A DNA stretch of 39,336 nt, taken from a virus (taxonomy: Duplodnaviria > Caudoviricetes). Below the pieces are notes generated by a model. The model was not told the origin of the DNA. It did not search any database and saw nothing but the letters and a program-made list of their open reading frames with translations. How positions within the stretch are numbered: position 1 is the first letter of the stretch; every line of letters begins with the position of its first letter. The translations under genes and the position numbers were made by a program. Shown here piece after piece: positions 3,654-39,336 of the stretch. The stretch covers positions 1-39,336 of the IMG/VR virus record IMGVR_UViG_3300032321_000391; one strand, given 5' to 3'.

Positions 3654-3679
3654 TATGACTCCTTATGTATTAAGACAAA

Positions 3680-26027: not shown

Positions 26028-26573
26028 AGGCGTAGTAAGCAGCGCGACAAGATATAGAGCGCTGCAGTATCCTTTCTAACCGAAGCCGTAGCCCCAAGGC
26101 GAAGGCGAAGGTTAGGGCATACTATAGGGAGCAACCTAGACGGTTGCCTTAGCAGTAGTGGAGGGGCGAATATAGCGTTGCCCCTCACTATACTATTAGG
26201 TGTCCGAAGGACACTAATTGGACATCTTTTTTGAATATATTTTTTGTTACCTATGCCACTGTCTATAAGTGCTGGTCAGCACCCACTTCCCCAGGATTAT
26301 CAAACTTATACGGGTAGAGACACATACACACATACGCACGCATATTTAAAACCCTGGGGTCATCAGACCCTGCAATCTCTCCTCAAGATGCACACTTTTT
26401 GCGTGCCCCGCTTTCTTGTGTCTTAAGAATTAGCAGGTGAGAGCGCTAGACCTTGCAGAGACGACAACTCTCACCCCTCCTCCTTGTATCGCGGGGGGGG
26501 CGCATCGCTTGGCTTGGCTTGGCTCGTGTGCCAATCTCACAATGTGAGACGGCTAAGGGCTTGAGCGTGTGGA

Positions 26574-26644
26574 TGTGAGATGCATCACATTTGAAAGAAA
26601 TCTGCCAAATATCCTTGACACCGCATAAACGGCGGGTGTATAAA
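26574..26644 (+). promoter_or_regulatory. Early promoter 1 with CRP-type box
   Basis: TGTGAgatgcaTCACA 26574-26589; TTGACA 26615-26620, 18 nt, TATAAA 26639-26644. Confidence 0.75.
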
Positions 26645-26686
26645 TCTCCTAACGAGTTCAAATCGGACTCAAGACAGGAGAAAAAA

Positions 26687-27349
26687 ATGTCACAAGAAAT
26701 GCACGCAGAATCTAACAAGGTGATTGCCCGCGTTATCGCCAAGCAAAACAAGGCGGAGGCACTCTCAACTCTCACCAAGGCACTAGAACAGGCTCACGAA
26801 CTCATCAAGGCAGAAACAGGCGCACCCCGTGCGACTCTCCTCGTGACTCGTGACCTCAAGGGTCGCCGAGGACATTTCACCCCTTATACCCCTTGGCGCA
26901 CCGAGGATGAGGTTTTCAACGAGATTGCTTTCAACCTTGAGACTTTCTCAAGCGCCGAGGATTTATTCTCAACACTTTTGCACGAGGTGGCGCACTCACT
27001 CAATCACATGAACGGAATTGAGGATTGCTCATCCAACCAATATCACAATGCAAAATTCAAGACACAAGCCGAGGCGTTAGGTCTTAAGACCGAAAAAACC
27101 AAAAAGGGTTACTCATCCACAAGCCTCACCGATTTTGGCGCTAAGCGATGGGCTAAGGCGCTCAAGATTGTTGCAACCGCCTATGACCTCACCGCCCTTG
27201 GCGGAGAATCTGCCAAGCCAAAAGGCAGAAACACCAACCTAATTAAAGCCGAGTGCACCGATTGCGGAAATGTAATCCGCCTAAGTCGCTCAGTGATTGA
27301 GAGCGGTGTGATGTGCATGCCATGTGAGACACAATTCACCGAGGCTTAA
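26687..27349 (+). CDS. SprT-like zinc metalloprotease with C-terminal Zn ribbon
   Basis: TLLHEVAH (HExxH), YHNAKFK, CxxC...CxxC; ATG 26687 after AGACAGGAGA RBS. Confidence 0.8.
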   Translation: MSQEMHAESNKVIARVIAKQNKAEALSTLTKALEQAHELIKAETGAPRATLLVTRDLKGRRGHFTPYTPWRTEDEVFNEIAFNLETFSSAEDLFSTLLHEVAHSLNHMNGIEDCSSNQYHNAKFKTQAEALGLKTEKTKKGYSSTSLTDFGAKRWAKALKIVATAYDLTALGGESAKPKGRNTNLIKAECTDCGNVIRLSRSVIESGVMCMPCETQFTEA

Positions 27350-27433
27350 GACACAAAAGCCCCCGCCCGATAAGTCGGCACAGGTTCACGACCTACGGGG
27401 GCACGAACTCTCAACCTAAAGTTGAGGGTTAGG

Positions 27434-27489
27434 TGTGATGGACATCACATCTAAAATGCTTGACACGCTCAGGCTATGGATGAGAAGGT
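27434..27489 (+). promoter_or_regulatory. Early promoter 2 with CRP-type box
   Basis: TGTGAtggacaTCACA 27434-27449; AAATGC-TTGACA (27460-27465), 18 nt, TGn-GAAGGT. Confidence 0.7.
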
Positions 27490-27552
27490 TACACCAAGCA
27501 AGACCACAACAGGCACCGTGCAGGTTGTGGCTTAAGACGGGAGATAAAAAAG

Positions 27553-27921
27553 ATGGCAACAAGAAGCGCAATCGGTATTAAGTCAGAAGATGGAACAATT
27601 AAGGCGAGTTACTGTCACTGGGATGGATACCCCGAAGGGGTAGGGGCTGGACTCGTTCAGTTCTACAACAGCAAGGCACAAGCCGAGGAACTAATCTCCC
27701 TTGGCGGGTTCTCAGCACTTCACGACACCCTAGAAGAAACCAAAGCGGGAGCCTATGGCACACCAAGCGACAGCGCCCGCACTTTTACAGGTGAAAAAGA
27801 TTTTTTTGAGAACTTCAACGCTGGCGAGGAGTATTTCTATCTATACACCGAGGGCACAGGATGGCGCTACTCACAAGGTGGCAACTGGGCATGTCTTAAT
27901 ACAGAAAAAGAGGTGGCATAA
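27553..27921 (+). CDS. Conserved phage early hypothetical protein
   Basis: MATRSAIG...YCHWDGYP...EYFYLY motif pattern common in phage early regions. Confidence 0.75.
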   Translation: MATRSAIGIKSEDGTIKASYCHWDGYPEGVGAGLVQFYNSKAQAEELISLGGFSALHDTLEETKAGAYGTPSDSARTFTGEKDFFENFNAGEEYFYLYTEGTGWRYSQGGNWACLNTEKEVA

Positions 27922-28086
27922 ATGGATGCACGATACGCAATGGCGGATGCATACAAGGCGCTACGCCGTGCACACATGGAGGTTGCAGAGTTTGAGGCAG
28001 AGATAAACAACTGCACAGATTCAGAGCATGCATATCGCATCGCCCTCAAGTGGCAAGCGATTGCAAATAAGAAAGTTGTGGCTTAA
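27922..28086 (+). CDS. 54-aa hypothetical protein (not in ORF track)
   Basis: MDARYAMADAYKAL...KKVVA*; GAGG RBS, abuts upstream stop. Confidence 0.65.
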   Translation: MDARYAMADAYKALRRAHMEVAEFEAEINNCTDSEHAYRIALKWQAIANKKVVA

Positions 28087-28089
28087 GAC

Positions 28090-28272
28090 ATGAACTCAAC
28101 ATGTGAGGATTGCAACAGCCCAACCCGCATCACCCTCGCCCCTTATGGGATGAGATTCATGGCAGAGATTGCATGTCCTAAATGTGGCGTGTCTTACGAC
28201 ACAAACATTGACGACACCGACATTGAAGCCATCAAGAAATCATTACTTAAGACAGAGGAGGTGACAGCATGA
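28090..28272 (+). CDS. Small zinc-ribbon protein
   Basis: CEDC...CPKC. Confidence 0.65.
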   Translation: MNSTCEDCNSPTRITLAPYGMRFMAEIACPKCGVSYDTNIDDTDIEAIKKSLLKTEEVTA

Positions 28273-28406
28273 AGATTAACTTTAACCTTTACGGGTCTAG
28301 TGGATACATCTCTAACAACACACTAGACGAGATTGAATTTGAAAGATTCCGCACCATCGCGGAGAGTTTCAAACAGGTGATTAAGATTGAGAAAGTTGAG
28401 TCTTAA
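28269..28406 (+). CDS. 45-aa hypothetical protein (not in ORF track)
   Basis: MKINFNLYGSSG...EKVES*; GGAGG RBS, ATGA overlap. Confidence 0.65.
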   Translation: MKINFNLYGSSGYISNNTLDEIEFERFRTIAESFKQVIKIEKVES

Positions 28407-28420
28407 GACAGAAGAATAAA

Positions 28421-28477
28421 TGTGATGCAAATCACAGCCCTAAATGCTTGACGAGCACGAGGTGAGCAAGGCACCAT
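28421..28477 (+). promoter_or_regulatory. Early promoter 3 with CRP-type box
   Basis: TGTGAtgcaaaTCACA 28421-28436; AAATGC-TTGACG (28448-28453), 18 nt, CACCAT. Confidence 0.7.
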
Positions 28478-28542
28478 TAGGGCACAAGATAAAGCAGGGA
28501 TAGCCCCCGCATTATCGGCACCACATACGACAGGAGAAGCAA

Positions 28543-29106
28543 GTGAAGAAAGCAGAACTGAAAGCGGGCGTTGCTTACTATGCAACCTCTCAGAATAACC
28601 ACATGAACACCTATCAAGATGCAATCTACAAGACACACAAGCAACACGAACGCAACCGTTTTTATGTAATCTTTGATACAGACGGACAGCCTAAGACTTC
28701 ATACAGAAGCGCGAGTGTGATTTACATGACCAACTGCCCGACCTATGGGCATGATTGCTTAAGACACAAGAAAGAAGATAGCAATTTAATTAACTGCTAC
28801 CGCAACGAGTTCCGACTCATGGACATCCGCGATGAATACTGGGCGGTAATCAAGCGCATGCATGAACAGCGCAAAGCACAACCAACCAAGGACATCAGAG
28901 CCGAACGCCTACGCCGTATCGCCAAGCGCAATCAAACAAAACAAGAAGAACCAATCAAGGCAGAATTCTATTCTGTCTTAAGTCAGGTTACTGGAGACTA
29001 CTGCTCATCATGGCACACACTAGGTGGGTTCAGTGTTGAGGAGATGGCAAAGATTACCAAGGCACTCAAGGCAAGCATGCCATCAGTGATGGCGGTGGCA
29101 TCGTGA
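28543..29106 (+). CDS. Hypothetical early protein
   Basis: 187 aa, GACAGGAGA RBS before GTG. Confidence 0.7.
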   Translation: MKKAELKAGVAYYATSQNNHMNTYQDAIYKTHKQHERNRFYVIFDTDGQPKTSYRSASVIYMTNCPTYGHDCLRHKKEDSNLINCYRNEFRLMDIRDEYWAVIKRMHEQRKAQPTKDIRAERLRRIAKRNQTKQEEPIKAEFYSVLSQVTGDYCSSWHTLGGFSVEEMAKITKALKASMPSVMAVAS

Positions 29107-29240
29107 CCGAGACAATCTGCGGAGACTGCCTTATCCCCCTATCCACATGCCAACATGCAAAAGATTATGTCTTAAGTAATAACGACAAAAAGATTTTGCG
29201 TTTGATTGCATCAAGCCTTGCAACGAAAGGATTGAAATGA
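29103..29240 (+). CDS. 45-aa Cys-containing peptide (not in ORF track)
   Basis: MTETICGDCLIPLSTCQH...; GTGA and ATGA overlaps at its ends. Confidence 0.55.
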   Translation: MTETICGDCLIPLSTCQHAKDYVLSNNDKKILRLIASSLATKGLK

Positions 29241-29398
29241 AACTTAACAAGCGAGGCAAGCGAGTGCGTTCTGTCTTAATACTTATCATCATAATCGGTG
29301 GCGTTTGGTTCACATCAACACACCACAAAGTCTATGGCAACTGCCACACCACAGTAGATGGCAGGGTCTGCGACCTAATCAGATGGGAGAAAAACTAA
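29237..29398 (+). CDS. 53-aa single-TM protein (not in ORF track)
   Basis: MKLNKRGKRVRSVLILIIIIGGVWF...; basic N-terminus plus TM helix, AAGGA RBS. Confidence 0.7.
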   Translation: MKLNKRGKRVRSVLILIIIIGGVWFTSTHHKVYGNCHTTVDGRVCDLIRWEKN

Positions 29399-29637
29399 TG
29401 AGCAGACAACATCACTATGCGATTATGTTTGACGAAGAAACAAATCGTTGGAGCATAGACATAGACACAGAAGAAAAAGTTTTTTACGAAGGCTCTATCT
29501 ACAACACAGCAACTCGCAAGTGGGAGTATGGGTATGCAGGTGACGGCAACTTCATCGGCAGAGAACAAGAACTTACCGAAGCGATAAGCAAATTCCTAGA
29601 TAAACAAAATGAATTGTTACTTAAGACAGAGATGTGA
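29398..29637 (+). CDS. Hypothetical early protein
   Basis: ATG 29398 (TAATG coupling, GGAG RBS). Confidence 0.65.
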   Translation: MSRQHHYAIMFDEETNRWSIDIDTEEKVFYEGSIYNTATRKWEYGYAGDGNFIGREQELTEAISKFLDKQNELLLKTEM

Positions 29638-29688
29638 CCAACATCACACCACAAATGCTTGACTTACTATGCCAACGAGTGGCAAAGT
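29633..29688 (+). promoter_or_regulatory. Early promoter 4 with CRP-type box
   Basis: TGTGAccaacaTCACA 29633-29648; AAATGC-TTGACT (29659-29664), 18 nt, TGn-CAAAGT. Confidence 0.7.
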
Positions 29689-29717
29689 AATCACTACCAA
29701 CTAGACAGGAGAACAAG

Positions 29718-30086
29718 ATGAGCAATACAACAGGGCACACAGATGCCAACGGACAGGGCACCATCGTTATACCCGTGGAGTTAGACCGCAAGGAACTATG
29801 GGGTGCGGTGATGGGTTCAGCCTTTGAATCTTTCGGTGACCACTGGCAAGAGATTGAATACCTAAGCGGTAATTGGGATGACCCAACCAGCAAGGTGCGG
29901 ATGGTATGTCACAATGATAAGTACGAAAATGTAGAAAAGATAATCACGATTGACGACATAGCCTTGGCACTACCTATCGCAAACAAGAAAGTTTACATGG
30001 ACTTGTTTGACTTTGACCAATACGATGCAATCTGCGGTGATGCTGTCTTACAGGTGGCTGTCATTGGCGATGTGATATTCGGTTAG
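29718..30086 (+). CDS. Hypothetical acidic early protein
   Basis: 122 aa, AGACAGGAGA RBS; ends DAICGDAVLQVAVIGDVIFG. Confidence 0.7.
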   Translation: MSNTTGHTDANGQGTIVIPVELDRKELWGAVMGSAFESFGDHWQEIEYLSGNWDDPTSKVRMVCHNDKYENVEKIITIDDIALALPIANKKVYMDLFDFDQYDAICGDAVLQVAVIGDVIFG

Positions 30087-30096
30087 GACTTAAGAC

Positions 30097-30243
30097 ATGA
30101 ACTCACTAGAGATGAAAGCCACACGCACCCTTGCTAAGCGAGCAAGAGAGCAACGAAACGCCAGCACAAATGACAAAGACTTTGATTACTGGCATGCGAT
30201 AATGGAACAGTACGAAAACAAACTACAGACAGGAGATAAGTAA
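30097..30243 (+). CDS. 48-aa hypothetical protein (not in ORF track)
   Basis: MNSLEMKATRTLAKRAREQR...; fills the gap between two genes. Confidence 0.6.
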   Translation: MNSLEMKATRTLAKRAREQRNASTNDKDFDYWHAIMEQYENKLQTGDK

Positions 30244-30244
30244 C

Positions 30245-30526
30245 ATGGCAATACATGAAGTAGAACTAAAAGGAATACAGGTCGGAGCATTACTTAAGAC
30301 AGAAACTGCATACGACAAAGACATGAACCTCACCTTTGATGGCAAAGAGATACGAGTTATCCTGCATTGGGATGACCACGATGGCTTTGATATTCAATGG
30401 CTTGACCTTGAAGGTAGATGGATTCAACAGCCAGCATGGGCAGATAGGATTGAGGAAGAAGGCACCATGAGTGTTGGGTATTACCTTGATTCATTGGAGG
30501 CACACACCAAGAAGGAGATGCCATGA
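30245..30526 (+). CDS. Hypothetical acidic early protein
   Basis: 93 aa, AGACAGGAGA RBS. Confidence 0.7.
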   Translation: MAIHEVELKGIQVGALLKTETAYDKDMNLTFDGKEIRVILHWDDHDGFDIQWLDLEGRWIQQPAWADRIEEEGTMSVGYYLDSLEAHTKKEMP

Positions 30527-30699
30527 CTATCCTCATGCAATGCTTAGGTTGTGGCACAGTAGTGACCAACCCCAAGGTAATGAACTACATGTATGAGAAG
30601 TGCGATTACTGCACAGATAAGCAGAAAGAGATGGAAGAAAAAGCAATAGATAGTTTCTTGCATGCCGAAGCCGAGAGAAAGTTGGACAGTAATGCGTAA
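30523..30699 (+). CDS. 58-aa zinc-finger peptide (not in ORF track)
   Basis: MTILMQCLGCG...CDYC...; AAGGAG RBS, ATGA overlap. Confidence 0.65.
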   Translation: MTILMQCLGCGTVVTNPKVMNYMYEKCDYCTDKQKEMEEKAIDSFLHAEAERKLDSNA

Positions 30700-31132
30700 T
30701 GACTTAAGACAGATACACCCACATGCCCGACTGTGGATAGCAACAGTAATTATCTTAGGACTAATCTTAGTTCTTAAGCCAGCATCAAAGTTCATGGCAC
30801 CACCACATGGCAAGGTGATTGCTTACTATCAGAACGATTACCAACGCTATGCCTTAGACAAACTGATAGAGCGCAACCAACTAGAACAATACCCCTGCCT
30901 CTATGAATTGTGGATTAAGGAATCCAACTGGCGACCGCAAGCACTAAACAAATCAAGCAAGGCATCAGGTATCGCACAACTAAAGCCAAGCACATGGCGC
31001 AACATCAACACCATCCCCACGCAAGACGGTTACAAGCAGGTAGATGCTGGACTCAAGTACATAGATAGACACTATGGCAAGAACAGTATCTGCAAGGCAT
31101 ACGCTCACCATCTTGCGATGGGGTGGTACTGA
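30692..31132 (+). CDS. Membrane-anchored lytic transglycosylase (SLT-like)
   Basis: TM helix then CLYELWIKESNW (catalytic Glu), ASGIAQ, GLKYIDRHYG, GWY. Confidence 0.8.
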   Translation: MRNDLRQIHPHARLWIATVIILGLILVLKPASKFMAPPHGKVIAYYQNDYQRYALDKLIERNQLEQYPCLYELWIKESNWRPQALNKSSKASGIAQLKPSTWRNINTIPTQDGYKQVDAGLKYIDRHYGKNSICKAYAHHLAMGWY

Positions 31133-31476
31133 TGTTTAAGATTAAATTCTTTCGTGTATTAAGTCAGACTAACCCACGCTATAAAGGTTCAGATACTGTC
31201 AGTTATCAGTTGAAGTATGACCCTGAGAAGTGGAAGGGTGCATCGTGTGCTGGTATAGATACGGAGTTCTTCTATCCACAACAGGATAAGTTTGAGGCAG
31301 GTGAGGCTGAGTTACTCAAGCGTATCTGTGTGGACTGCCCCGTTATGGAGGCGTGCCTTGAGTGGGGCATAGCCATGGAAAGGTATGGAGTATGGGGTGC
31401 AACGACACCCTTTGAACGGTTTGCTATCCGTAAGCGACACAACATCATGGTCAATGAGCCTAAGCAAAACCCGTGA
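31132..31476 (+). CDS. whiB: WhiB-family transcription factor
   Basis: C...FFYP...CVDCPVMEAC...GVWG: four-Cys Fe-S signature with GVWG turn. Confidence 0.9.
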   Translation: MFKIKFFRVLSQTNPRYKGSDTVSYQLKYDPEKWKGASCAGIDTEFFYPQQDKFEAGEAELLKRICVDCPVMEACLEWGIAMERYGVWGATTPFERFAIRKRHNIMVNEPKQNP

Positions 31477-31488
31477 TATAGTTCCAAG

Positions 31489-31577
31489 GTTCACCAGCCC
31501 CTACGAAGGGGAAGCGTGGAGGTTGGTGAACATAGAAAAGCCCATCAGATTCTCTCCTGTCTCTGGTGGGTTTCTCT
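31489..31577 (+). ncRNA. Candidate small RNA: two hairpins, the second a terminator with an anti-RBS loop
   Basis: TGaTATAGT at 31474-31482; stems 31489-31499/31521-31531 and 31539-31549/31562-31572 use G-U pairs only on the + strand; loop TTCTCTCCTGTC. Confidence 0.6.
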
Positions 31578-32115
31578 ATGTATTAAGACCCAACTCTTTA
31601 GCCAACATAAATACTTCATCACTTAAATCTTCTAATGTTCCATCGTTATAGATAACATGACTAAACATATAGTTATCCATTGCATGTTCAGATGGATGAT
31701 GATTAACTGCGGTGTTATTCCTGCGGTTGATACGCCACACAGTACCGCCTAACTTCTTGATTGCATCAGCCTCATTAGGAAAGCGCACATCACTGATAAC
31801 AACACGGTCATCCTGTCTTAAGTCAGACAGTGACATTTTAATCCACACATCATCGCCTAACATCTTGCGCCCAAAGTCAGTGCCCAGTACCTGTAATAGA
31901 CGGCGAACTTCTGGATTCTTCTTAGCAATATCCCAGCCATAGTCATCTACATAATCGGAGACACGAGTGATGCTATCTAATCGTGGGTTAATAATCTGTA
32001 ACGCATGGCGCATCGGGTCAGCAAATGCTCGCCGTTTGTAATCGTAATTAAGACACAACAATTCTGCCGTTGCATCTTTGCCTGACTGTGCGTATCCACT
32101 CAATCCGATTATCAT
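31576..32115 (-). CDS. Deoxynucleoside monophosphate kinase
   Basis: IIGLSGYAQSGKD P-loop, FADP, RRLLQVLGT, VISDVRFPNE, HPSE. Confidence 0.88.
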   Translation of the reverse strand: MIIGLSGYAQSGKDATAELLCLNYDYKRRAFADPMRHALQIINPRLDSITRVSDYVDDYGWDIAKKNPEVRRLLQVLGTDFGRKMLGDDVWIKMSLSDLRQDDRVVISDVRFPNEADAIKKLGGTVWRINRRNNTAVNHHPSEHAMDNYMFSHVIYNDGTLEDLSDEVFMLAKELGLNT

Positions 32116-32762
32116 TGTTCTTCCTTATCTGGTCTGCGATACCTACGGTTATTCCATTGTGGTTGCTCACCACCTAGTCTCTCTTGCAACTTAGTAAGCG
32201 CACGAGATACACGCTTACGGATAGCCTCATCACTAACTGAATACTCAAGGGCTAGTGCATCTATATCCATGCCACCATCTGCGAACCTACGATTCAACAG
32301 CAGGTTGTCCTGCTCATTTAGTTTCTTAAGACCGAACGCCACATCAGATAGCATAGCCTCACGATTCATGCCCTCACTAGGTTTACTAGATGTAGAGATG
32401 AACTCATCTCGTGGTGTAGATGATGCAGACCATGACTCATACGCCCACACATCCTTGAGTAACTCTTGTAGTATCTCATGTGTGTAATAGAAAGCATCCG
32501 ATGGCATTGACTTAGCCCGATGTGCTCTTTCTTTAGCAGCAAACTTCTGTGCCTCATTGTTAAAGGTACGCTTGAGTTTAAAGATGAGTGAGTCTTGCCC
32601 TTCCCACTCCTCAATCTTATGCCAATGTTCTAGTGCCCATAGGTTAAGGTGTTGGAACACATCATCAGCAGTGACTAGGTTGCGATGGATACGGGTGCAT
32701 CTAGTAGCCGAGGCACGAGCACACCGATAGACAACTTCCCATAGTGCATCCTTCTCAGTCAT
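32112..32762 (-). CDS. Sigma-factor-like protein (region-4 HTH)
   Basis: ADDVFQ region-2-like segment and C-terminal LALEYSVSDEAIRKRVSRALTKL HTH. Confidence 0.7.
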   Translation of the reverse strand: MTEKDALWEVVYRCARASATRCTRIHRNLVTADDVFQHLNLWALEHWHKIEEWEGQDSLIFKLKRTFNNEAQKFAAKERAHRAKSMPSDAFYYTHEILQELLKDVWAYESWSASSTPRDEFISTSSKPSEGMNREAMLSDVAFGLKKLNEQDNLLLNRRFADGGMDIDALALEYSVSDEAIRKRVSRALTKLQERLGGEQPQWNNRRYRRPDKEEQ

Positions 32763-33141
32763 CCTTTAGTTTCCTCGTTGCCTCTAGTAAATCATCAACT
32801 GTAATGAGATAACCCTTGCTTCTATTCGGGGGAATCTCACAAGTAATCTCTCTACCACCATGTCTTAAGGCATAGTGTACATGAGAACGAGGAACCATGA
32901 CCACACCATGCTCTAATACAAACGCCCAATAGTCTGCCTCACTTGTCATTAAACCTGATGGCTCCCATGACTGCGACCTCTGATACCAACACTCAACTTC
33001 TACATAAAGATTGTTAGTCATGTGCCACTTGCGGTCACGCTTTACTTCTACTGTCTTACCTTGGGTGAGCAGTTCTTCTACTAAGTTCTCGCCACCTTTA
33101 CCGTAGCCAAAATCTAAATCAAAGGAGGATAGGTTAGCCAC
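32755..33141 (-). CDS. Putative PD-(D/E)XK-fold protein
   Basis: VEVKRD...NLYVE...SGLMTSEADYW. Confidence 0.55.
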   Translation of the reverse strand: MANLSSFDLDFGYGKGGENLVEELLTQGKTVEVKRDRKWHMTNNLYVEVECWYQRSQSWEPSGLMTSEADYWAFVLEHGVVMVPRSHVHYALRHGGREITCEIPPNRSKGYLITVDDLLEATRKLKDD

Positions 33142-33760
33142 CTATGCCTGCTCGTTTATGTAATCCTTCTGCACCTTCGGCAAGATACACATCATTAACA
33201 TCCTGACCTTCGGGCATAAAGACAGGGAACACATTGTCTAGTTCACGACTAAGGTTCTTAGCCATCTCACGACCAGCGTTGTCACCATCACATAGTAGGA
33301 TTACTTTATCCCAGTCAGCCAACACACGGGCATAAAAAGATTTCCAGTTGTTGGCACCAGGTAATCCAATGGCAGTGAACCCAGCCTGTGTTGCAATGAC
33401 TGTATCTAATTCACCTTCACATACAACCAACGATGTTGTATCATCATTGAGTGCGTTGATATTAAAGATGTGAGTCGTAGCCCCTGGGCGAGACATGTAC
33501 TTCGGTCCACTTGCATCCTGACTTAAGGCACGAAAGCGTATGTCAATACAACCTGATGGTGTTAGGTATGGGATAGATAACTTACCAGCGTATGGCTCGT
33601 GTCCAATCTCAGGATTGTTTACGAAGCCGAGGCGAAACATACGAGCCGTTGCTTCCGTTATACCGCGACTCCCCAGATACGGAAGAATCTCCCCTATGTT
33701 TTGAGCGTAGTTCTCCGTTGCTCTCTCCAGTAATTCTCTCTGCGATTTGCTTAGCCTCAT
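33134..33760 (-). CDS. DNA primase, Toprim domain
   Basis: VCEGELD, GLPGA, DGDNAG, DVND. Confidence 0.85.
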   Translation of the reverse strand: MRLSKSQRELLERATENYAQNIGEILPYLGSRGITEATARMFRLGFVNNPEIGHEPYAGKLSIPYLTPSGCIDIRFRALSQDASGPKYMSRPGATTHIFNINALNDDTTSLVVCEGELDTVIATQAGFTAIGLPGANNWKSFYARVLADWDKVILLCDGDNAGREMAKNLSRELDNVFPVFMPEGQDVNDVYLAEGAEGLHKRAGIGG

Positions 33761-33989
33761 TGAAAGTCACTCCTTCTTTCTTCATAATGATTGAGTACAC
33801 ATCGCCAGCCATGTCGCAGCCGAAACATCTGAACCCACCGTTTTCTGTATTAAGACGGGCAGATTTTACTCTGTCTCCGTGAAAGGCGCAACGAACTGTT
33901 ATCCAGCCACGCTTGCCTTGAGGTATATCAAATCCATAGTGTTTTAATACTTTGGCAAGGTCATGCTTAGAGTTTTGCAATAGCATCAC
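33609..33989 (-). CDS. DNA primase zinc-binding (CHC2) domain, separate ORF
   Basis: CAFHGD...SA...FRCFGC...GD. Confidence 0.8.
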   Translation of the reverse strand: MMLLQNSKHDLAKVLKHYGFDIPQGKRGWITVRCAFHGDRVKSARLNTENGGFRCFGCDMAGDVYSIIMKKEGVTFNEAKQIAERITGESNGELRSKHRGDSSVSGESRYNGSNGSYVSPRLRKQS

Positions 33990-34332
33990 TGAGCCTTTGT
34001 ACTACATAGGACTCCTCAATGCCTTTGTTAGAAGCCTTGATGATAACCAATGGCGTTGGTGCTACCTTTAATTTCTTAGCGATGCGATAGTTCTCTGCCT
34101 CTACCTGCGCTTCACGAATCCAGCCAGATAAATCTACCTTGCCATCACGCCGTGGTGCTTTGGCTTCAATAACATACGCATCATTTACTGTCTTAAGAAA
34201 GACATCACCTATGTCATTGCGACCAGCACGAGGTAAGCGTTGCGCCTCATACTCCTCGTCAATAAACCAATCAGCAAGGTCAATCTCAAATGCTGCACCT
34301 CTACGCTTGTTACTCTTTTGTGGTGTCGTCAT
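33967..34332 (-). CDS. Holliday junction resolvase (Hjc-like PD-(D/E)XK)
   Basis: KRRGAAFE...DIGD...IEAK; ATG 34332. Confidence 0.75.
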   Translation of the reverse strand: MTTPQKSNKRRGAAFEIDLADWFIDEEYEAQRLPRAGRNDIGDVFLKTVNDAYVIEAKAPRRDGKVDLSGWIREAQVEAENYRIAKKLKVAPTPLVIIKASNKGIEESYVVQRLSDAIAKL

Positions 34333-35056
34333 TAGCCTTCTCCTGTTGTGCTCGTTGAGATGCTTCTGCTGCTGACCAATACAATGAGTAATAAGATTCA
34401 TCATAAGCAAAGCGCTTCATGTGTTTAACTCGTGCACCTGTGTGTGCATGCACCTTGACACCTGCTGCTTTTAGTTTACGGAAGAACACAATGTCCTCAC
34501 CAATAAACTTTTCACCAAGGTTCTCAACCTCAGCAAACATTGACTGGTCTGGAAACTTCTGTCTTAAGTGAGGAACTACACTGCGATGCATGAGCGTAAG
34601 CCCAAGCCCTGCATTATCTACCTCAATGATTTCATTGGCTGGTAGTGGATGGATGTAACGGATATTAAACTCATTACCTGTCTCATTAAATAGCGCAGGC
34701 ATAGGTTGCATCAGTGATGACTCCATCTGCTTAGAGATAAAGTAAACACCCGATACCACTGGTCGCGTTGCTTTGTCTGCTGTTTTCCATAGCATCTCAA
34801 GCACATCAAGGGTAAGCACAATGTCTGAGTCAACCCATAACAACCAATCAGTCTTTACATTGTCATACCACATATCAAGTAGCGCTTGTCGCTGTCTGCC
34901 AATCTGATTACCTTGTACTCGGATGGCATTATGCACACCCAACTTACGGGTAGGTGCTGTGATGGTGGTGTACATCAAACCTTCTGCAAACTTGCCATCC
35001 ACCATACCGTTATCGCACCAACCGATAGATAAAGTTTCATTAGAACTGTGTGCCAT
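34310..35056 (-). CDS. GT-A fold glycosyltransferase-like protein
   Basis: WLLWVDSD (DxD), AGLGLTLMHR, GEDIVFF, VKHMK. Confidence 0.75.
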   Translation of the reverse strand: MAHSSNETLSIGWCDNGMVDGKFAEGLMYTTITAPTRKLGVHNAIRVQGNQIGRQRQALLDMWYDNVKTDWLLWVDSDIVLTLDVLEMLWKTADKATRPVVSGVYFISKQMESSLMQPMPALFNETGNEFNIRYIHPLPANEIIEVDNAGLGLTLMHRSVVPHLRQKFPDQSMFAEVENLGEKFIGEDIVFFRKLKAAGVKVHAHTGARVKHMKRFAYDESYYSLYWSAAEASQRAQQEKANDDTTKE

Positions 35057-35399
35057 TGGTATCCTCTGTCTCGTCTAGTACCTTAAGTGCGCCTTCGCCC
35101 ATAACTTTAAATGAACTGGACATATTCATTAACTGTTCTGCAATATCCTCAACACACTCTCTGCCATGGTCCTCAGTGAGATGCTTGCCTAATTGCTCAA
35201 CATAATCTGCAAACTGAATAGCCTCTAGCCAAATAGTATTAGGGTCATATACTTGTTTAGTTGCTTCATCTATCTGCTCTATAACATTGGGTAACTCAGA
35301 GAGTATTACTTCCTGAATCTCCGTTGGTACCTTCATCTTTTTTAACATCTTGCTCACTGCCTCTGGTGAAAGAGACGATTCCCCCACTGATATATGCAT
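35040..35399 (-). CDS. Hypothetical acidic helical protein
   Basis: Open frame; start uncertain, overlaps the upstream gene. Confidence 0.55.
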   Translation of the reverse strand: MHISVGESSLSPEAVSKMLKKMKVPTEIQEVILSELPNVIEQIDEATKQVYDPNTIWLEAIQFADYVEQLGKHLTEDHGRECVEDIAEQLMNMSSSFKVMGEGALKVLDETEDTNGTQF

Positions 35400-35646
35400 C
35401 GTATTCTTCTTCGGTGAGGTCCAAGAACGCACCGCTTTCTTTATTCTGCCAAACAAGTGCTCTCCATCCCACGGTATATGAAAGTGTGCGAGGTACAACC
35501 ATAAGTTGTGCCTTAATATCTGTAAGTAATGTCTTAGTTGCTACCACTACATCATCTTTAACTTCTTTAGCGGGGATTTCTCCTGCGTTTTCTACTACCT
35601 TTAAAGTCCAAGGACTGTCCAACTTCTCCATGTATAACTCGCCCAT
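35296..35646 (-). CDS. Hypothetical protein
   Basis: AAGGAG RBS before ATG 35646. Confidence 0.65.
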   Translation of the reverse strand: MGELYMEKLDSPWTLKVVENAGEIPAKEVKDDVVVATKTLLTDIKAQLMVVPRTLSYTVGWRALVWQNKESGAFLDLTEEEYDAYISGGIVSFTRGSEQDVKKDEGTNGDSGSNTL

Positions 35647-35655
35647 CTTATCTCC

Positions 35656-36453
35656 TTAAAATAGTTTTGTTGCTTCGTAAGACACAACATCTAATATCTG
35701 CATACTTGCTGGCTCATACGATAACCAGACTGGCGTGCCACCAGTTGCATCGGCTGGACCATAACGATTCTTTACCGCACACACACCCATTGTTGACTGC
35801 TGGTTATGTACCGTAAGGATTAGTGATGGAGTTTGTGCGACCTTACCGTGAAGGGATTTCTGTGGTGGACATGGATTACCAGGCACTGCTTCGCTGGTGT
35901 GGTGACACACAACTACTGCTGCTCCCGTTTCTCTAGCCCACCATTTAAGTTCCTTCATCAAGGTACGCAACCCACCCCACTCGTCTTGAGAATCCATGCT
36001 TACATCTACTGCGTTGTCTAACACAATCAACTGCACATCTGCACCTAAGCGTTCACGAGTAGCAAGAACTGCATCCTCAATATCCTTAAGCGTTGGTGAT
36101 GAATCAAACTCCCAATAAATGTGGTCAGCAGGCTTGAGCATTTGTGCAGCCCAGTCTCTGTCAATCTCCATCATTGGTTCTACTTCTTGCTGTGCCTTAC
36201 CAGTTAGTAAAGCAAGCAAGCGTAGGCTCATCGTGTGTGAGTGTGTATCCGCAGAAATGTAAAGGGTAGGTACCTTTGCACGGACTGCCAAGGACAGAGC
36301 AAGCGTTGACTTGCCTGCCCCTGGCGGTCCAGCAATCATACTTACCTCGCCGTAACGGACTGCTATTTGATTGGCAGCAAAGGATTGCCACACTGTTGGA
36401 AGTGTCGCACCCCCTCGTGATTCTGTCTTAATAGCACGGCTAAGTAGGCGCAT
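35656..36453 (-). CDS. DnaB/RecA-family replicative helicase (ATPase domain only)
   Basis: GPPGAGKST, LIVLDN, VVCHH, VKNRYG. Confidence 0.85.
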   Translation of the reverse strand: MRLLSRAIKTESRGGATLPTVWQSFAANQIAVRYGEVSMIAGPPGAGKSTLALSLAVRAKVPTLYISADTHSHTMSLRLLALLTGKAQQEVEPMMEIDRDWAAQMLKPADHIYWEFDSSPTLKDIEDAVLATRERLGADVQLIVLDNAVDVSMDSQDEWGGLRTLMKELKWWARETGAAVVVCHHTSEAVPGNPCPPQKSLHGKVAQTPSLILTVHNQQSTMGVCAVKNRYGPADATGGTPVWLSYEPASMQILDVVSYEATKLF

Positions 36454-36456
36454 GAG

Positions 36457-36891
36457 TTATGCAGGAACCTTGTTCTGGCATGCTGCACCTTGTGGCTTAG
36501 GACATGCATAGAACGCCTTGTATGGGCGACCTGTTGACTTAGCGATACCTGCTGGTACATGGCGCATTGCTCCACCACCGCATGTGCACTCAGGAACTGG
36601 TCGTGATGGTGAGTAACCTGCTGGTGCAGCCTGTGGTGTTGGTGCTGCTGTCCAGTTAGGTGCTTCTACAACTGTTGCACCTGGGAAGGCAGCAGCAATA
36701 ACTAGTGCTGGTGCTTGTGGTGCAGCCATTGTTTCTGTTGTTTGCTCAAGGTCAATGAGTGCAGCAAGGCGCTGTGTCAATGCATCAATGAGTGTGTCTA
36801 GTTCAAAGCCATCGTTAGCACGAAGGTTAATCAACATGCCGTCACGCTTTGTCTTGAAGTTAATCTGAATTGCTGCTGATTCGTTAGCCAT
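36457..36891 (-). CDS. Hypothetical protein with C-terminal Cys-rich domain
   Basis: Ala/Pro linker then CTCG...GRPYKAFYACP...C; sits between exonuclease and helicase. Confidence 0.65.
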   Translation of the reverse strand: MANESAAIQINFKTKRDGMLINLRANDGFELDTLIDALTQRLAALIDLEQTTETMAAPQAPALVIAAAFPGATVVEAPNWTAAPTPQAAPAGYSPSRPVPECTCGGGAMRHVPAGIAKSTGRPYKAFYACPKPQGAACQNKVPA

Positions 36892-36892
36892 T

Positions 36893-37720
36893 TTATTCTC
36901 CTATGTTTACTTCGGGATAGAGGTGTGAGTCTTTGCCACCCACTGCATAACATGATGAGTTTACTGAGCAAGTGCCACACATAAACCCAGGTGCTGGTAT
37001 GAAGATGTTGTTAATTACTGCTAGTTCAAAGCCCTTAACCTGATTGCCGAGCCGAGACTCAGTATAACGGTCAAGGCTGACAGGCGTTGTTAGTTCTCCT
37101 GTGCGTGCCATGAAATAACTGCCAAGTTCAGGGCGAATACCAAAGGTTTTCTCCACGAGCACGGCATAGATACCAAGTTGTGCTTGAGACTTTGGCTCAG
37201 CACCTGTCTTAATATCTACAATTACTAACTCTCCTGATGGTGCAACCATAACGCGGTCTAAGAACGCCTTAATGTTTACACCTTTAACTGTTTGATTCAT
37301 TTCAGTTTCAATAGCAGGGATGCCAGCGGGAGTATCCCAAATCTTCCATCCACTTTCTTGTCTGAATTGAATCCAGTAGTCAACCATCTTTGGACCATTG
37401 GCTAACCACCAAGAGGCATCCTCTTTGTTTGGATACGCTTTGGTTGCACGACCACCAGCACGCCAAGGCATGCCGTTATCCACCATCTTGTAGTTGTGTT
37501 CCCAGCGTTCGTTGAACACGGCTACTGGGTCAAACCCTTCTGGCTTAATGTCGTAGTATTCTGTACACTCGTGCACTGCCTTGCCTCCAGCCAACCAATA
37601 GGATGGCGCTTCGGCTACATGCTGTACACGAGATAGGTAATACTGCCATCCGCACCCAAGCCATGTTGACATGGCGGAGTGAGAGACATAGTTCTTACCT
37701 GTTACTAGTTCAAGTGTCAT
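36893..37720 (-). CDS. Cas4/RecB-like PD-(D/E)XK exonuclease
   Basis: SHS...C, GKAVH, LDRV...VDIKTG, QLGIY, terminal CxxC...C. Confidence 0.85.
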   Translation of the reverse strand: MTLELVTGKNYVSHSAMSTWLGCGWQYYLSRVQHVAEAPSYWLAGGKAVHECTEYYDIKPEGFDPVAVFNERWEHNYKMVDNGMPWRAGGRATKAYPNKEDASWWLANGPKMVDYWIQFRQESGWKIWDTPAGIPAIETEMNQTVKGVNIKAFLDRVMVAPSGELVIVDIKTGAEPKSQAQLGIYAVLVEKTFGIRPELGSYFMARTGELTTPVSLDRYTESRLGNQVKGFELAVINNIFIPAPGFMCGTCSVNSSCYAVGGKDSHLYPEVNIGE

Positions 37721-37808
37721 TGTTTCTCCTTCAATAGAGGAGACTACTACACAATCTCTGCTCTATTATCCGACACGCCGAGACGAATTACATCAATGTA
37801 GTTCTTTT

Positions 37809-38057
37809 ATGTATACACTGCTGTTCGTGTTGAACAGATTAAGTAGAGGACTAGCGAGGTTCCTGAACCGAGCAGGTGTTACCGCACCCATAGGTGCAGA
37901 TTTGCGTAGCCTTGGTCCTGTCCATGCATGTATGTGTGGCTCACTGCTTTTTAAGGTGGGTTGCATGTTTGAAGATGGCGATATAAGTATGTGGTTTGTT
38001 GATGCAGAGTGTGCTCTATGTGGAGCCTTAGTGAAAGTGCCAACACCAGTTGATTAA
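37809..38057 (+). CDS. Small zinc-binding protein
   Basis: DLRSLGPVHACMCG...CALCG...PTPVD. Confidence 0.65.
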   Translation: MYTLLFVLNRLSRGLARFLNRAGVTAPIGADLRSLGPVHACMCGSLLFKVGCMFEDGDISMWFVDAECALCGALVKVPTPVD

Positions 38058-38196
38058 AATAATTTATGCATTAAGTTTTATTGTGAGTAACATCACAACT
38101 TTTTTTTGGTCTTATCAGTTAGGTATTAAGACAGAGCAACGAGCACGCCTTCGGAGGCTAAACACATTGAAGCGATTACTTAATGGCAAAGTATGA
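38050..38196 (+). CDS. 48-aa putative membrane peptide (not in ORF track)
   Basis: TTG start, MIKIIYALSFIVSNITTFFWSYQLGIKTEQRARLRR...; overlaps both neighbours. Confidence 0.45.
   Translation: MIKIIYALSFIVSNITTFFWSYQLGIKTEQRARLRRLNTLKRLLNGKV
38082..38097. promoter_or_regulatory. Fifth perfect CRP-type box
   Basis: TGTGAgtaacaTCACA; no TTGAC follows; may lie inside a small ORF. Confidence 0.5.
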
Positions 38197-38350
38197 TTTT
38201 AAATGCAATGTATGCGGTGGGGTACAAGAGATAGATAAACCAATGGGTAGCGACTGGGTACCAGTGTGCTGCAATGAATCCATGTCTCAAGTTTATAGTC
38301 CAATACCAGTCAAGTTCAATGCTTCTGGTTTCTATTCAACAGGTGGTTAA
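38183..38350 (+). CDS. FmdB-family zinc-ribbon protein (not in ORF track)
   Basis: MAKYDFKCNVCG...CC...FNASGFYSTGG. Confidence 0.8.
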   Translation: MAKYDFKCNVCGGVQEIDKPMGSDWVPVCCNESMSQVYSPIPVKFNASGFYSTGG

Positions 38351-38929
38351 ATGGAATATCCAAATTGGTTTGAAAGCACAGGCGCTATCAATAACTTTGA
38401 GCGCCACCTTCGCCAGCATGCAGGCAAGCCTGTTGATTTCCTACAGATAGGTGCATACACAGGCGATGCATCTGAGTGGATGTTGAGAGAAATCTTGAGC
38501 CACCCCGACTCAACTTTGACCGATGTGGATACATGGGAAGGCAGTGATGAGGCATCTCACCATGATATGGACTTTGATGATGTCTTTAAAACATACGAAA
38601 AGAAGGTTGGCAAGTACCATAACTTGACCTATTGCCAGCAAACAAGCAATGAGTTCTTTCTTAATAACAAAAAGTTATATGACTTTATCTACATAGATGG
38701 TGACCACACAGCCTTTGGCGTGATGCGTGATGTGATGAACGCCTATGGTGCACTTAAAGCAGGTGGAATTATTGCTTGCGATGACTACCAATGGTCAGAA
38801 GGTAAGGGTAATTACTATGACCCACGCCCTGCGATTGATGCTTTCTTTAACATAACCCGTGACAGATTTACTGTCATTGAAATCGGTTGGCAAGTCTGGT
38901 TTAAACATGCAGCACAGGCTACTACTTAA
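38351..38929 (+). CDS. Class I SAM-dependent methyltransferase (Methyltransf_24-like)
   Basis: LQIGAYTG, VDTW, DFIYIDGDH, LKAGGIIACDDY. Confidence 0.85.
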   Translation: MEYPNWFESTGAINNFERHLRQHAGKPVDFLQIGAYTGDASEWMLREILSHPDSTLTDVDTWEGSDEASHHDMDFDDVFKTYEKKVGKYHNLTYCQQTSNEFFLNNKKLYDFIYIDGDHTAFGVMRDVMNAYGALKAGGIIACDDYQWSEGKGNYYDPRPAIDAFFNITRDRFTVIEIGWQVWFKHAAQATT

Positions 38930-39239
38930 GAACCCAACCACTCGCTTTGGTATCTGCGCCGTGTGTGGACCAACGAGGTTGAAAAAGAAACAACGGGGTT
39001 ACTATTCCTGTCGCACAAAGTCTAATCAAAACCGTGTCAAGTTACTTAAACATAAGAAAGAACAATGCGAAGTGTGTGGCTTTGTGGCTGTGCACCGTAG
39101 TCAGTTAGACATTGACCACATAGATGGCGACCATAGTAACAATTCGTTATCAAACTTACAGACCCTATGTGCCAACTGCCACCGTCTTAAGACACAAGAT
39201 AATAAAGATTGGCAAAACAAAAAAGCCCCCCGCAATTAA
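38907..39239 (+). CDS. HNH endonuclease
   Basis: CEVCG...LDIDHIDGDHSNNSLSNLQTLCANCHRLKT. Confidence 0.88.
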   Translation: MQHRLLLKNPTTRFGICAVCGPTRLKKKQRGYYSCRTKSNQNRVKLLKHKKEQCEVCGFVAVHRSQLDIDHIDGDHSNNSLSNLQTLCANCHRLKTQDNKDWQNKKAPRN

Positions 39240-39249
39240 GCGAGGGGCT
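39219..39249 (-). terminator. Intrinsic terminator at the convergence of the HNH and holin-like genes
   Basis: AGCCCC-c-CGC aattaa GCG-a-GGGGCT hairpin with a T6 tract on the - strand. Confidence 0.75.
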
Positions 39250-39281
39250 AATCTGTTTAGGTTACAAAAGGTTCCTAAAGG

Positions 39282-39336
39282 TTACTTCTTAAGACCGAAC
39301 TCTGGTGCTGACTTGTCAAGTGCCTTGAGCACTGGA
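39282..39336 (-). CDS. 3' end of a probable holin
   Basis: Reads ...PVLKALDKSAPEFGLKK*, resembling the C-termini of actinophage holin-like proteins; truncated by the window. Confidence 0.5.
   Translation of the reverse strand, partial: PVLKALDKSAPEFGLKK

What the first reader, a model, noticed from the sequence alone, without database searches (positions are those of the whole stretch)
26419..39295. About 29 copies of a palindrome (consensus CTGTCTTAAGACAG) saturate the early/replication third of the genome
Seen (manual count of loci with TTAAGAC on either strand): 26420, 27081, 27345, 27531, 27893, 28082, 28246, 28400, 28758, 28975, 29169, 29273, 29620, 30089, 30293, 30703, 31583, 31815, 32048, 32325, 32862, 33850, 34190, 34561, 36425, 37206, 38126, 39184, 39288, plus near-misses (27576, 28191, 31157, 33520). 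That is 29 in 12.9 kb against ~1.6 expected at equal base frequencies, and only ~8 weaker ones in the 26-kb structural arm (best at 3666 and 12035). Flanks extend the dyad (CTGTCTTAAGTCAG, CCGTCTTAAGACAC, CTGTATTAAGACGG). Copies lie inside genes in different frames (LKT, LRH/LRQ, VLS, CLN), so selection is on the DNA. Phages usually avoid palindromes. Inference: binding array for a dimeric protein, for example stoperator-like silencing, parS/nucleoid-like coating of first-injected DNA, or a decoy for a host regulator or defence protein. It matches no operator I recognise.
Basis: partly seen in the sequence, partly recalled or inferred. Interest (0 to 1): 0.82.

Follow-up and report, generated by a model that had tools for sequence, protein, structure and literature searches.

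The report
Zinc-ribbon phage repressor operator array
This phage writes one short near-palindromic DNA word about 30-40 times over its early and replication genes, and across many unrelated phages the word changes together with one small phage gene, so the words are likely binding sites for that gene's protein, predicted to be an unrecognised type of repressor and possibly the missing one of some cultured soil phages.

Summary
The array is real: 29 TTAAGAC loci in 12.9 kb, against 1.5-4 expected; synonymous-codon null 4.3 versus 22 seen. Relatives carry mutually exclusive spellings (TTAAGAC, GTTTAAAC, GTCTAAAC), re-spelled synonymously at the same codons. The spelling follows the first early gene (26687-27349), a SprT-like protein with a C-terminal zinc ribbon. 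Of type-A loci, 114/121 are enriched for the TTAAGAC word and 0/121 for GT[TG]TAAAC; type-B loci give 0/80 and 65/80. Eight of eight cultured phages with the KQ[TG]TR form carry arrays, often inside promoters, including the gene's own. Five phages without the gene, and two whose recognition arm is changed, do not. The ribbon is modelled as a homodimer (0.63, best control 0.02). Best reading: operator and roadblock sites for a phage-encoded repressor, working like Cluster A stoperators but not a member, and a candidate for the unidentified repressor of temperate AZ/EH phages. Binding and repression are untested. The scan found this system earlier on other DNA.

The parts
26420..39295 (.). Array of 29 TTAAGAC loci (40 at PWM score >=8). 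10-bp cores start at 26420, 27081, 27343, 27529, 27893, 28080, 28244, 28400, 28756, 28975, 29169, 29273, 29618, 30087, 30291, 30701, 31580, 31815, 32045, 32323, 32862, 33847, 34190, 34561, 36425, 37206, 38123, 39184, 39286
26687..27349 (+). First early gene, 220 aa: SprT-like zincin domain (HEVAH intact) plus C-terminal C4 zinc ribbon; inferred cognate site-binding protein (type A)
   Evidence: Pfam PF10263 29.6 bits, cut-off 25.6; AF2 model pLDDT 84; co-variation with the word
27200..27346 (+). Zinc-ribbon module (aa 172-220): basic KPKGRNTN arm, invariant C190, R198, S200, C210, C213; predicted homodimer
26666..26675 (+). Degenerate site GACTCAAGAC in the leader of the SprT-zinc-ribbon gene, running into its ribosome-binding site (putative autoregulatory operator); its left half is also the 3' arm of a short leader hairpin
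   Evidence: PWM 14.6; 41 of 45 unique type-A leaders carry a site; hairpin
26574..26646 (+). Putative first early promoter: TGTGA-N6-TCACA box (26574-26589), TTGACA at 26615, TATAAA -10-like element
   Evidence: the CRP-type label is recalled, function inferred
27434..29670 (+). Three more TGTGA-N6-TCACA boxes (27434, 28421, 29633), each 10-11 bases before TTGAC. Array sites abut two of them (28400, 29618); one lies in a leader (27529)
26687..31476 (+). Early module of small genes ending in SLT and WhiB genes; densest part of the array
31576..37720 (-). Replication/middle operon (dNMP kinase, sigma factor, primase, resolvase, glycosyltransferase, helicase, exonuclease) with intragenic sites at codons re-spelled in other dialects, e.g. 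32045 and 33847
26028..26573 (.). Inferred position of the physical genome end, between terL and the first early promoter
   Evidence: inference from the gene order of Streptomyces phage WRightOn; not shown by reads

Best explanation
The 29-40 copies of an imperfect 10-bp palindrome are likely operator and roadblock sites for the phage's own first early protein (26687-27349), a SprT-like protein whose C-terminal zinc ribbon is predicted to dimerise and read the site and would act as a repressor. Model: host RNA polymerase transcribes the first early gene. Its product binds a site at its own ribosome-binding site (negative feedback) and sites flanking the other early promoters. It then loads along early genes (4 sites/kb) and replication genes (2/kb) and largely spares late genes (0.2-0.3/kb). 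The likely result is shut-off of early expression and, at high level, a silent carrier state with immunity against kin that use the same spelling. Spellings would be immunity groups: type A reads a 10-bp GTC-TTAA-GAC-like site, type B an 8-bp GT-[T/G/C]TAA-AC site. SHOWN: array, gradient, synonymous re-spelling, word-protein co-variation, sites at promoters. INFERRED: binding and dimer. UNTESTED: repression, immunity, role of the protease domain. Odds: the cognate protein is this one, about 0.88; it acts as a repressor, about 0.65 overall.
For: (1) 43 of 43 TerL-selected relatives with >=2.6 kb upstream carry exactly one array: 17 TTAAGAC, 25 GTTTAAAC, 1 GTCTAAAC (37 of the 80 loci were too short). 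The spelling changes at least 3-4 times on the TerL tree. (2) In 17 whole genomes no near-universal gene sorts by spelling, but the first early gene does: type A in 7/7 TTAAGAC genomes (window included), type B in 10/10 others. A and B are homologous end to end (hhalign 98.6%, E 7e-16). (3) Double dissociation: type A loci 114/121 enriched for [AC]TTAAGAC and 0/121 for GT[TG]TAAAC; type B loci 65/80 and 0/80 the other way, 33/43 after clustering B at 70% identity. (4) Same amino acids, own word: the primase Zn-domain RLN is CGT TTA AAC in 9/9 P genomes, CGT CTT AAT in 5/7 T, CGT CTA AAC in the Q genome. The dNMP-kinase CLN is spelled as the T word in 7/7 T, the P word in 4/9 P and the Q word in Q. 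Ten shared genes: T genomes 58 T-sites and 0 P-sites, P genomes 78 P and 2 T. (5) Cultured phages with the KQ[TG]TR form: Cen1621 28, GardenState 16, MaGuCo 15, Liebe 17, Lizalica 24, Emotion 17, Crosby 38 GTGTAAAC; R26L (alphaproteobacterial host) 11 GTTTAAAC; expected 0.2-1.6 where computed. Without the gene: BaileyBlu 0, SpecialK 0, HaugeAnator 0 (same host strain as Crosby), WRightOn 1, ct2KA10 no early array. With the arm changed to KSRSGR: Katzastrophic 0 and FlameThrower 0, same host strain as Cen1621. (6) 35 of 166 sites in those 8 phages lie in or next to a sigmaA-like promoter, against 0.3-0.8% of random positions. These include the gene's own promoter in Cen1621, MaGuCo, Crosby and Emotion and in many lake P and Q phages. 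41/45 type-A leaders carry a site, against 102/370 random early and 5/340 structural windows. (7) Lake type B lacks HEXXH, and two loci (L071, L080) match only over the zinc ribbon, yet arrays persist. (8) Zinc-ribbon homodimer model: score 0.63, best of 3 controls 0.02; the mark was reached by 20 of 30 solved homodimers and 1 of 23 single chains; runs agree in >=93% of contacts, pLDDT >=79. Invariant R198 pairs with itself on the dyad and the basic arm is not in the named interface (own alignment, Zn riding along, so the counts hold roughly). (9) AZ phage Powerpuff forms immune lysogens with no identified repressor (PMC8758107, passages). The AZ SprT-like gene is named a candidate, and its mutant Liebe makes clear plaques (bioRxiv 10.1101/2025.05.26.655371, Lysogeny section).
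Against: No binding or repression was measured. In this dialect, sites avoid the core promoter: 2 between -30 and +59 of TTGAC over 93 promoters, against 62 at -50..-31 and 40 at +60..+79. 24 of 29 window sites are inside ORFs. Orientation follows transcription in the early module (117:21, 9 both ways) but not in replication genes (37:31). R26L has 0 of 11 and Crosby 2 of 38 sites at such promoters, with even spacing along the genome. The window has no integrase or partition gene, and all 31 metagenome contigs are <=40.7 kb with no prophage seen. Type-A-like homologues in phiAsp2 and two actinobacterial plasmids show no array (0 of 3). 15 of 80 B loci and 7 of 121 A loci are not significant; L307 and L308 are weak. 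Loci include near-duplicates and were mostly selected through the protein itself. Two other genes are also confined to the P/Q module (10/10). The clear-plaque Liebe mutation hits the N-terminal part, which its authors read as a need for the protease domain.
Confidence: 0.65

Rival explanations
1. Same protein, different job: the zinc ribbon tethers a SprT/Wss1-like protease to phage DNA to strip or occlude host proteins there (Lsr2-type silencers, defence complexes, crosslinked proteins). The promoter sites are only autoregulation.
For: HEXXH is intact in the window and in the distant type-B loci. The weak fold match is human SPRTN (6mdx, probability 0.90, E 0.18). Sites are mostly intragenic and evenly spaced in Crosby and R26L. 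Density is highest at the end inferred to enter first.
Against: Lake type B has lost HEXXH, and two loci keep only the ribbon, yet these phages have dense arrays. 10 of 28 Cen1621 and 7 of 17 Emotion sites sit in or next to promoters, most of them of other genes.
Confidence: 0.17
2. Same protein, structural role: parS- or matS-like coating that organises, localises or maintains the phage DNA as an episome, without transcriptional silencing.
For: Genome-wide, orientation-free, mostly intragenic palindromes; integrase-free carriers such as this phage and Emotion.
Against: No ParA/ParB among 58 ORFs; precise placement in -35/-10 spacers or at +1; late genes are spared.
Confidence: 0.08
3. The word is read by a host factor (Chi-, HIP1- or uptake-sequence-like self mark, or decoy), and spellings reflect different hosts.
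For: Gradient towards the inferred first-entering end. TGTGA-N6-TCACA boxes go with the T spelling in the TerL-selected set. Host genomes could not be examined.
Against: Same host strain, opposite state: Crosby 38 against HaugeAnator 0; Cen1621 28 against Katzastrophic 0. GTTTAAAC is shared by lake phages of actinobacterial type and a Dinoroseobacter phage. T and P phages share capsid proteins up to 96.7% identical and a 3.2-kb block at 91%. Many second-genus loci have the array without the boxes.
Confidence: 0.06
4. By-product of codon use, stop codons, ribosome-binding sites or composition.
For: Three sites overlap a TAA stop, and AGACAG also begins the common AGACAGGAGA ribosome-binding motif.
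Against: Codon null 4.3 against 22; Markov null at most 9 against 29; synonymous re-spelling.
Confidence: 0.01

Closest known systems
Operator/stoperator system of Cluster A mycobacteriophages (L5 gp71, TipsytheTRex; PMC9283540 abstract, introduction and first results part; PMC6550527 passages)
   Same: 20-30+ sites for one phage protein over the genome; some in promoters, most not; a site upstream of the protein's own gene; site and protein diverge together into distinct specificities.
   Different: There: 13-14-bp asymmetric sites oriented with transcription, in short intergenic gaps, read by a monomer with HTH and Stoperator domains, in temperate phages. Here: 8-10-bp (near-)palindromes, mostly inside genes, a SprT plus zinc-ribbon protein modelled as a dimer, and no integrase in the window.
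'SprT-like protease' of Arthrobacter AZ and Microbacterium EH/EB phages (e.g. Lizalica gp46; bioRxiv 10.1101/2025.05.26.655371)
   Same: [quoted passage not shown]
   Different: The passages read name no binding site and predict a SPRTN-like function. The GTGTAAAC arrays and promoter operators shown here are not mentioned ('TAAAC', 'palindrom' and 'stoperator' occur 0 times in its main text).
SprT/SPRTN/Wss1 DNA-dependent zinc metalloproteases (PF10263)
   Same: Zincin domain with HEXXH followed by a zinc-binding module.
   Different: No sequence-specific binding known to me (recalled); here the protease motif is dispensable for the array in one branch.
HIP1, Chi and other iterated host words (recalled, not read)
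   Same: Short word iterated inside genes, in all frames.
   Different: Those are properties of host chromosomes; this word follows a phage gene and differs between phages of one host.

Membership tests
Cluster A operator/stoperator system | 20-30 sites for one protein across the genome | tested here: met
   29 loci in the arm, 39 in the window; 44 at PWM >=12
Cluster A operator/stoperator system | 13-14-bp asymmetric site without dyad symmetry | tested here: not met
   Imperfect 10-bp palindrome here; strict 8-bp palindrome in P relatives
Cluster A operator/stoperator system | Sites oriented with transcription | tested here: inconclusive
   117:21 in early modules, 37:31 in replication genes of 7 genomes
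Cluster A operator/stoperator system | Sites in promoters and short intergenic gaps | tested here: not met
   24 of 29 inside ORFs; promoter sites are a minority, 35 of 166 in cultured phages
Cluster A operator/stoperator system | Monomeric HTH + Stoperator-domain repressor | tested here: not met
   Candidate is SprT + C4 zinc ribbon, modelled as a dimer
Cluster A operator/stoperator system | Site upstream of the repressor gene; site and repressor co-diverge | tested here: met
Cluster A operator/stoperator system | Blocks transcription initiation and elongation; confers immunity | not testable with these tools
   needs reporter and immunity assays
SprT-like family PF10263 | Profile score above cut-off; HEXXH motif | tested here: met
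   29.6 bits against 25.6; HEVAH, with H99, E100, H103 nearly invariant
SprT-like family PF10263 | Fold like SPRTN | tested here: inconclusive
   Foldseek 6mdx E 0.18, probability 0.90, rmsd 4.1 over 101 columns; nothing at E<=0.001
SprT-like family PF10263 | Protease activity | not testable with these tools
   -
parABS partition system | ParA and ParB genes | tested here: not met
   none among 58 ORFs in PHROGs or Pfam
Chi / HIP1-type host word | Word fixed by host, not by phage gene content | tested here: not met
   same-host pairs differ, 38 against 0 and 28 against 0
Chi / HIP1-type host word | Enriched in the host chromosome | not tested
   no host genome was reached

The most novel reading that the evidence does not exclude
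SprT-zinc-ribbon proteins are a widespread, undescribed class of sequence-specific phage repressors that silence the genome through dozens of intragenic palindromes. Their recognition arm sets heteroimmunity groups (8-bp or 10-bp words) and their protease domain is a built-in switch. They are the missing immunity repressor of AZ/EH actinophages and let integrase-free freshwater podoviruses, filed as lytic, sit dormant in their hosts.
Probability: 0.35. Interest if true: 0.88.

Novelty: new variant of a known kind. Interest (0 to 1): 0.75.

Why it matters
It names a protein and a binding site for a published open question: AZ and EH phages give immune lysogens or turbid plaques with no identified repressor (PMC8758107, PMC7302621, passages). 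It can be tested at once in cultured, non-pathogenic hosts. It would add a non-HTH, protease-fused class of phage repressors with a readable arm-to-word code. It shows a whole arm of a genome re-spelled at synonymous codons after one gene is exchanged. It suggests that uncultured freshwater phages without integrase may have a controlled dormant state, and the word can serve as a sequence marker of immunity group.

Tried and rejected
Host genomes: the one genome-contig scan (WhiB query) gave only an unrelated Terriglobales hit, so host-chromosome enrichment is untested; the host (freshwater Actinobacteria) is inferred from WhiB, TerL and GC. Prophage search: 31 metagenome loci, all on contigs <=40.7 kb; 19 checked for gene content showed phage genes or were too short to tell. 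Sequencing runs: no RNA holder listed; three studies labelled freshwater, lake or aquatic hold 0.24-0.27 of the words; none was laid. Structure: no solved relative by profile; no Foldseek match at E<=0.001 for the protein or the ribbon; VIA best Z 3.0 (TFIIE-alpha zinc finger, rmsd 4.7, 45 aligned), generic zinc ribbons only; Atlas hits all below 0.9. The generic promoter scan found none of the four early promoters. Rival cognate gene 30523-30699 (T-only zinc finger, 7/7) rejected: absent from 24 of 24 more distant loci, most of which have the array. MerR-type activation considered and rejected: the spacers holding a site, read by eye in Cen1621 and lake P promoters, are of standard length. 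TGTGA-N6-TCACA boxes rejected as part of the site: separable in L413-L434. Literature searches listed no paper describing these words or a SprT operator (listings and abstract starts only; the library lacks most subscription papers). Supplements were not seen: bioRxiv Fig. S3 and the 'repeat sequences (data not shown)' of the AZ paper, and S10 Fig of PMC7302621, may bear on novelty.


Full report
Context. The window is one 39.3-kb virus record, 97% complete, 45% GC. It encodes WhiB, a sigma factor, primase, helicase and a T7-like virion set, and no integrase or ParAB among 58 ORFs scanned. TerL is 49% identical to Streptomyces Beephvirinae. In those phages terL lies at the left end and leftward genes at the right end, so the physical end is inferred to fall between 26027 and about 26570, and the + strand block from 26687 is inferred to be the early module. 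A freshwater actinobacterial host is inferred, not shown.

Observation. All 29 positions are confirmed. Nulls: Markov 1.5-4.0, maximum 9; synonymous codons 4.3+-1.9 against 22. Density falls from 4.0/kb (early) to 2.2 (replication) to 0.17-0.28 (late). 24 of 29 sites are in ORFs.

Dialects. Of 80 TerL-selected loci (the best 80 of 596 matches), 43 had >=2.6 kb upstream. All 43 carry one array: 17 TTAAGAC (T), 25 GTTTAAAC (P), 1 GTCTAAAC (Q). Seventeen whole genomes, window included, show the density rising towards the end upstream of terL. On a TerL tree of 55 rows (26 short loci left out), T needs 4 changes, at least 3 forced by well-supported branches, and none of 200 bootstrap trees makes it one group. 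The early module is therefore exchanged between lineages. T and P phages share capsids up to 96.7% identical and a 3.2-kb block at 91%.

Selection on DNA. In ten shared replication genes, T genomes hold 58 T-sites and 0 P-sites; P genomes hold 78 P-sites and 2 T-sites. At homologous codons the same peptide is spelled to give each genome's word. RLN in the primase Zn domain is CGT TTA AAC (9/9 P), CGT CTT AAT (5/7 T) or CGT CTA AAC (Q). CLN in dNMP kinase is spelled as the T word in 7/7 T, the P word in 4/9 P and the Q word in Q. This also indicates that the three words are one family: GT-[T/G/C]TAA-AC (8 bp) and GTC-TTAA-GAC with variants (10 bp). That alignment is my reading.

Cognate gene. 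Earlier scan notes pointed to a SprT-like zinc-ribbon gene, and I tested this. No near-universal gene sorts by dialect, but the first early gene does: type A in 7/7 T genomes, type B in 10/10 P and Q genomes. The types are homologous. Lake type B lacks HEXXH, and in L071 and L080 only the zinc ribbon matches, yet arrays remain. All 58 type-A loci with >=1.5 kb downstream, of 65, have the T array, as do nearly all loci of a second genus with TerL about 45% identical. Pooled: type A 114/121 enriched for [AC]TTAAGAC (2569 against 171.5 expected) and 0/121 for GT[TG]TAAAC; distant type B 65/80 (572 against 35) and 0/80, 33/43 after clustering. These sets contain near-duplicates and were selected through the protein. 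A T-only zinc-finger gene is absent from 24/24 more distant loci. Two P/Q-only genes (amidoligase- and amidotransferase-like by recalled motifs) are not among the annotations of the cultured carriers.

Cultured phages. With the KQ[TG]TR form: Cen1621 28, GardenState 16, MaGuCo 15, Liebe 17, Lizalica 24, Emotion 17, Crosby 38 (49.9 of 54 kb read) GTGTAAAC, and R26L 11 GTTTAAAC (40.5 of 79.5 kb read). Without the gene (tblastn and HMM): BaileyBlu 0, SpecialK 0, HaugeAnator 0, WRightOn 1. ct2KA10 has 11 scattered TTAAGAC loci (CTTAAGAC 9 against 1.9 expected), none in the early module; this mild enrichment without the gene is unexplained. Katzastrophic and FlameThrower keep the gene, but with KSRSGR in place of the arm, and have 0 sites. 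Same-host pairs differ (Crosby and HaugeAnator; Cen1621 and Katzastrophic), which argues against a host reader. Against generality: phiAsp2 (40.7 of 58.6 kb read) and two plasmids with type-A-like genes have no array.

Operator geometry. In Cen1621 the word fills the -35/-10 spacer of leaderless promoters; in MaGuCo and Emotion it follows the -10 element directly. In Cen1621, MaGuCo, Emotion and Crosby, and in many lake P and Q phages, it lies in the gene's own promoter. In all, 35 of 166 sites are at such promoters, against 0.3-0.8% of random positions; Crosby has only 2/38 and R26L 0/11. For T, 41/45 leaders of the gene carry a site (backgrounds 102/370 and 5/340; the matrix shares AGACAG with the ribosome-binding motif, which may inflate this). 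Around 93 box-plus-TTGAC promoters, 62 sites fall at -50..-31, 40 at +60..+79 and only 2 between (the promoters are homologous, not independent). So in this dialect the protein would act beside an activator box and as a roadblock rather than on the core promoter. That step is inferred.

Structure. AF2 gives a zincin domain and a separate C4 ribbon, with only weak matches to SPRTN and generic ribbons. The ribbon is modelled as a symmetric dimer: 0.63 against a best control of 0.02; mark reached by 20 of 30 solved homodimers and 1 of 23 single chains; >=93% contact agreement; pLDDT >=79. R198 lies on the dyad and the basic arm is outside the named interface. This supports a dimer that could read a palindrome; it does not show one.

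Literature. PMC8758107 (passages): Powerpuff lysogens are immune, and AZ/EH repressors are unidentified. bioRxiv 10.1101/2025.05.26.655371 (passages; Lysogeny section): the SprT-like gene is a candidate; Liebe, with a one-base insertion in it and three other changes, makes clear plaques against turbid ones for Maureen; integrase-free Emotion makes turbid plaques. PMC7302621 (12 of 21 passages): no repressor and no repeat described for EH in those passages. Stoperator features come from PMC9283540 (abstract, introduction, first results part) and PMC6550527 (passages). Searches listed nothing on these words. Supplements were not seen.

Verdict. This is a real, selected array that most likely serves a phage-encoded SprT-zinc-ribbon protein (about 0.88), probably as a repressor (0.65). 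It works like the Cluster A system but fails its membership tests on site symmetry, location and protein fold. The scan noted the system before on other genomes. What I tested here beyond those short notes: synonymous re-spelling, same-host and gene-loss controls, promoter operators in cultured phages, and the dimer model. Interest 0.75.

Noticed in passing
window 26574, 27434, 28421, 29633, 38082: Five perfect TGTGA-N6-TCACA boxes (CRP/GlxR-type by recalled consensus), four upstream of TTGAC, three of them with weak -10 elements. Present in T relatives, nearly absent in P; may tie early transcription to host nutrient state.
   Followed up: partly
window 26654-26670: Short hairpin in the leader of the SprT gene (48-nt region folded: -9.6 kcal/mol, z -2.05). 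Relatives keep a hairpin with changed arms, often made of two site-like halves.
   Followed up: partly
L442: Variant spelling G(T/A)C-[G/A]-TAAGAC (9 TAAGACA copies) beside a 45%-identical type-A protein: a possible fourth dialect.
   Followed up: partly
L189 15400-25200 (phiAsp2): Repeated promoter-like element beginning TTGACACTTCAC (9 copies listed), one just upstream of its SprT-like gene pas43.
   Followed up: no
G002 vs G009; G001 vs G003/G005/G006: Mosaic late arms: a T phage keeps GTTTAAAC relics and a P phage keeps T sites in virion genes, implying recombination between dialect groups.
   Followed up: partly
window 26419-39295: 48 of 64 six-base palindromes are absent, against 37 of 64 in the 26-kb late arm: strong restriction-site avoidance.
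   Followed up: no
window 33134-33989 (-): Primase split into overlapping Zn-binding and Toprim ORFs, as in Streptomyces phages WRightOn and HaugeAnator; possible programmed frameshift.
   Followed up: no
L230, L449 (MaGuCo, Liebe): A second iterated word, CCCGCAGG, 38-39 copies against 4-5 expected.
   Followed up: no
L445 (Katzastrophic): SprT gene with altered arm and no GTGTAAAC; top words CTCGGTGA (18/3.2) and GCGATCGC (13/1.5) could be a new target or unrelated.
   Followed up: no
L194 46188-46913 (Crosby gp76): A promoter with the site in its spacer lies inside the annotated 5' end (46223), so the true start is probably about 46302.
   Followed up: no
early modules of P and Q genomes: Two genes directly after the type-B gene in 10/10 genomes (about 250 and 270 aa; amidoligase- and glutamine-amidotransferase-like by recalled motifs), absent from T genomes.
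   Followed up: no
window 26677-26686, 29704-29717, 30230-30244: Extended ribosome-binding motif AGACAGGAGA, common in this family even in ct2KA10, which lacks the gene; shares AGACAG with the site.
   Followed up: no
window 9183-9893, 15786-21596, 34310-35056, 38351-38929: HslV-like peptidase, a 1936-aa probable internal virion protein, a glycosyltransferase and a Methyltransf_24 gene of unknown target.
   Followed up: no
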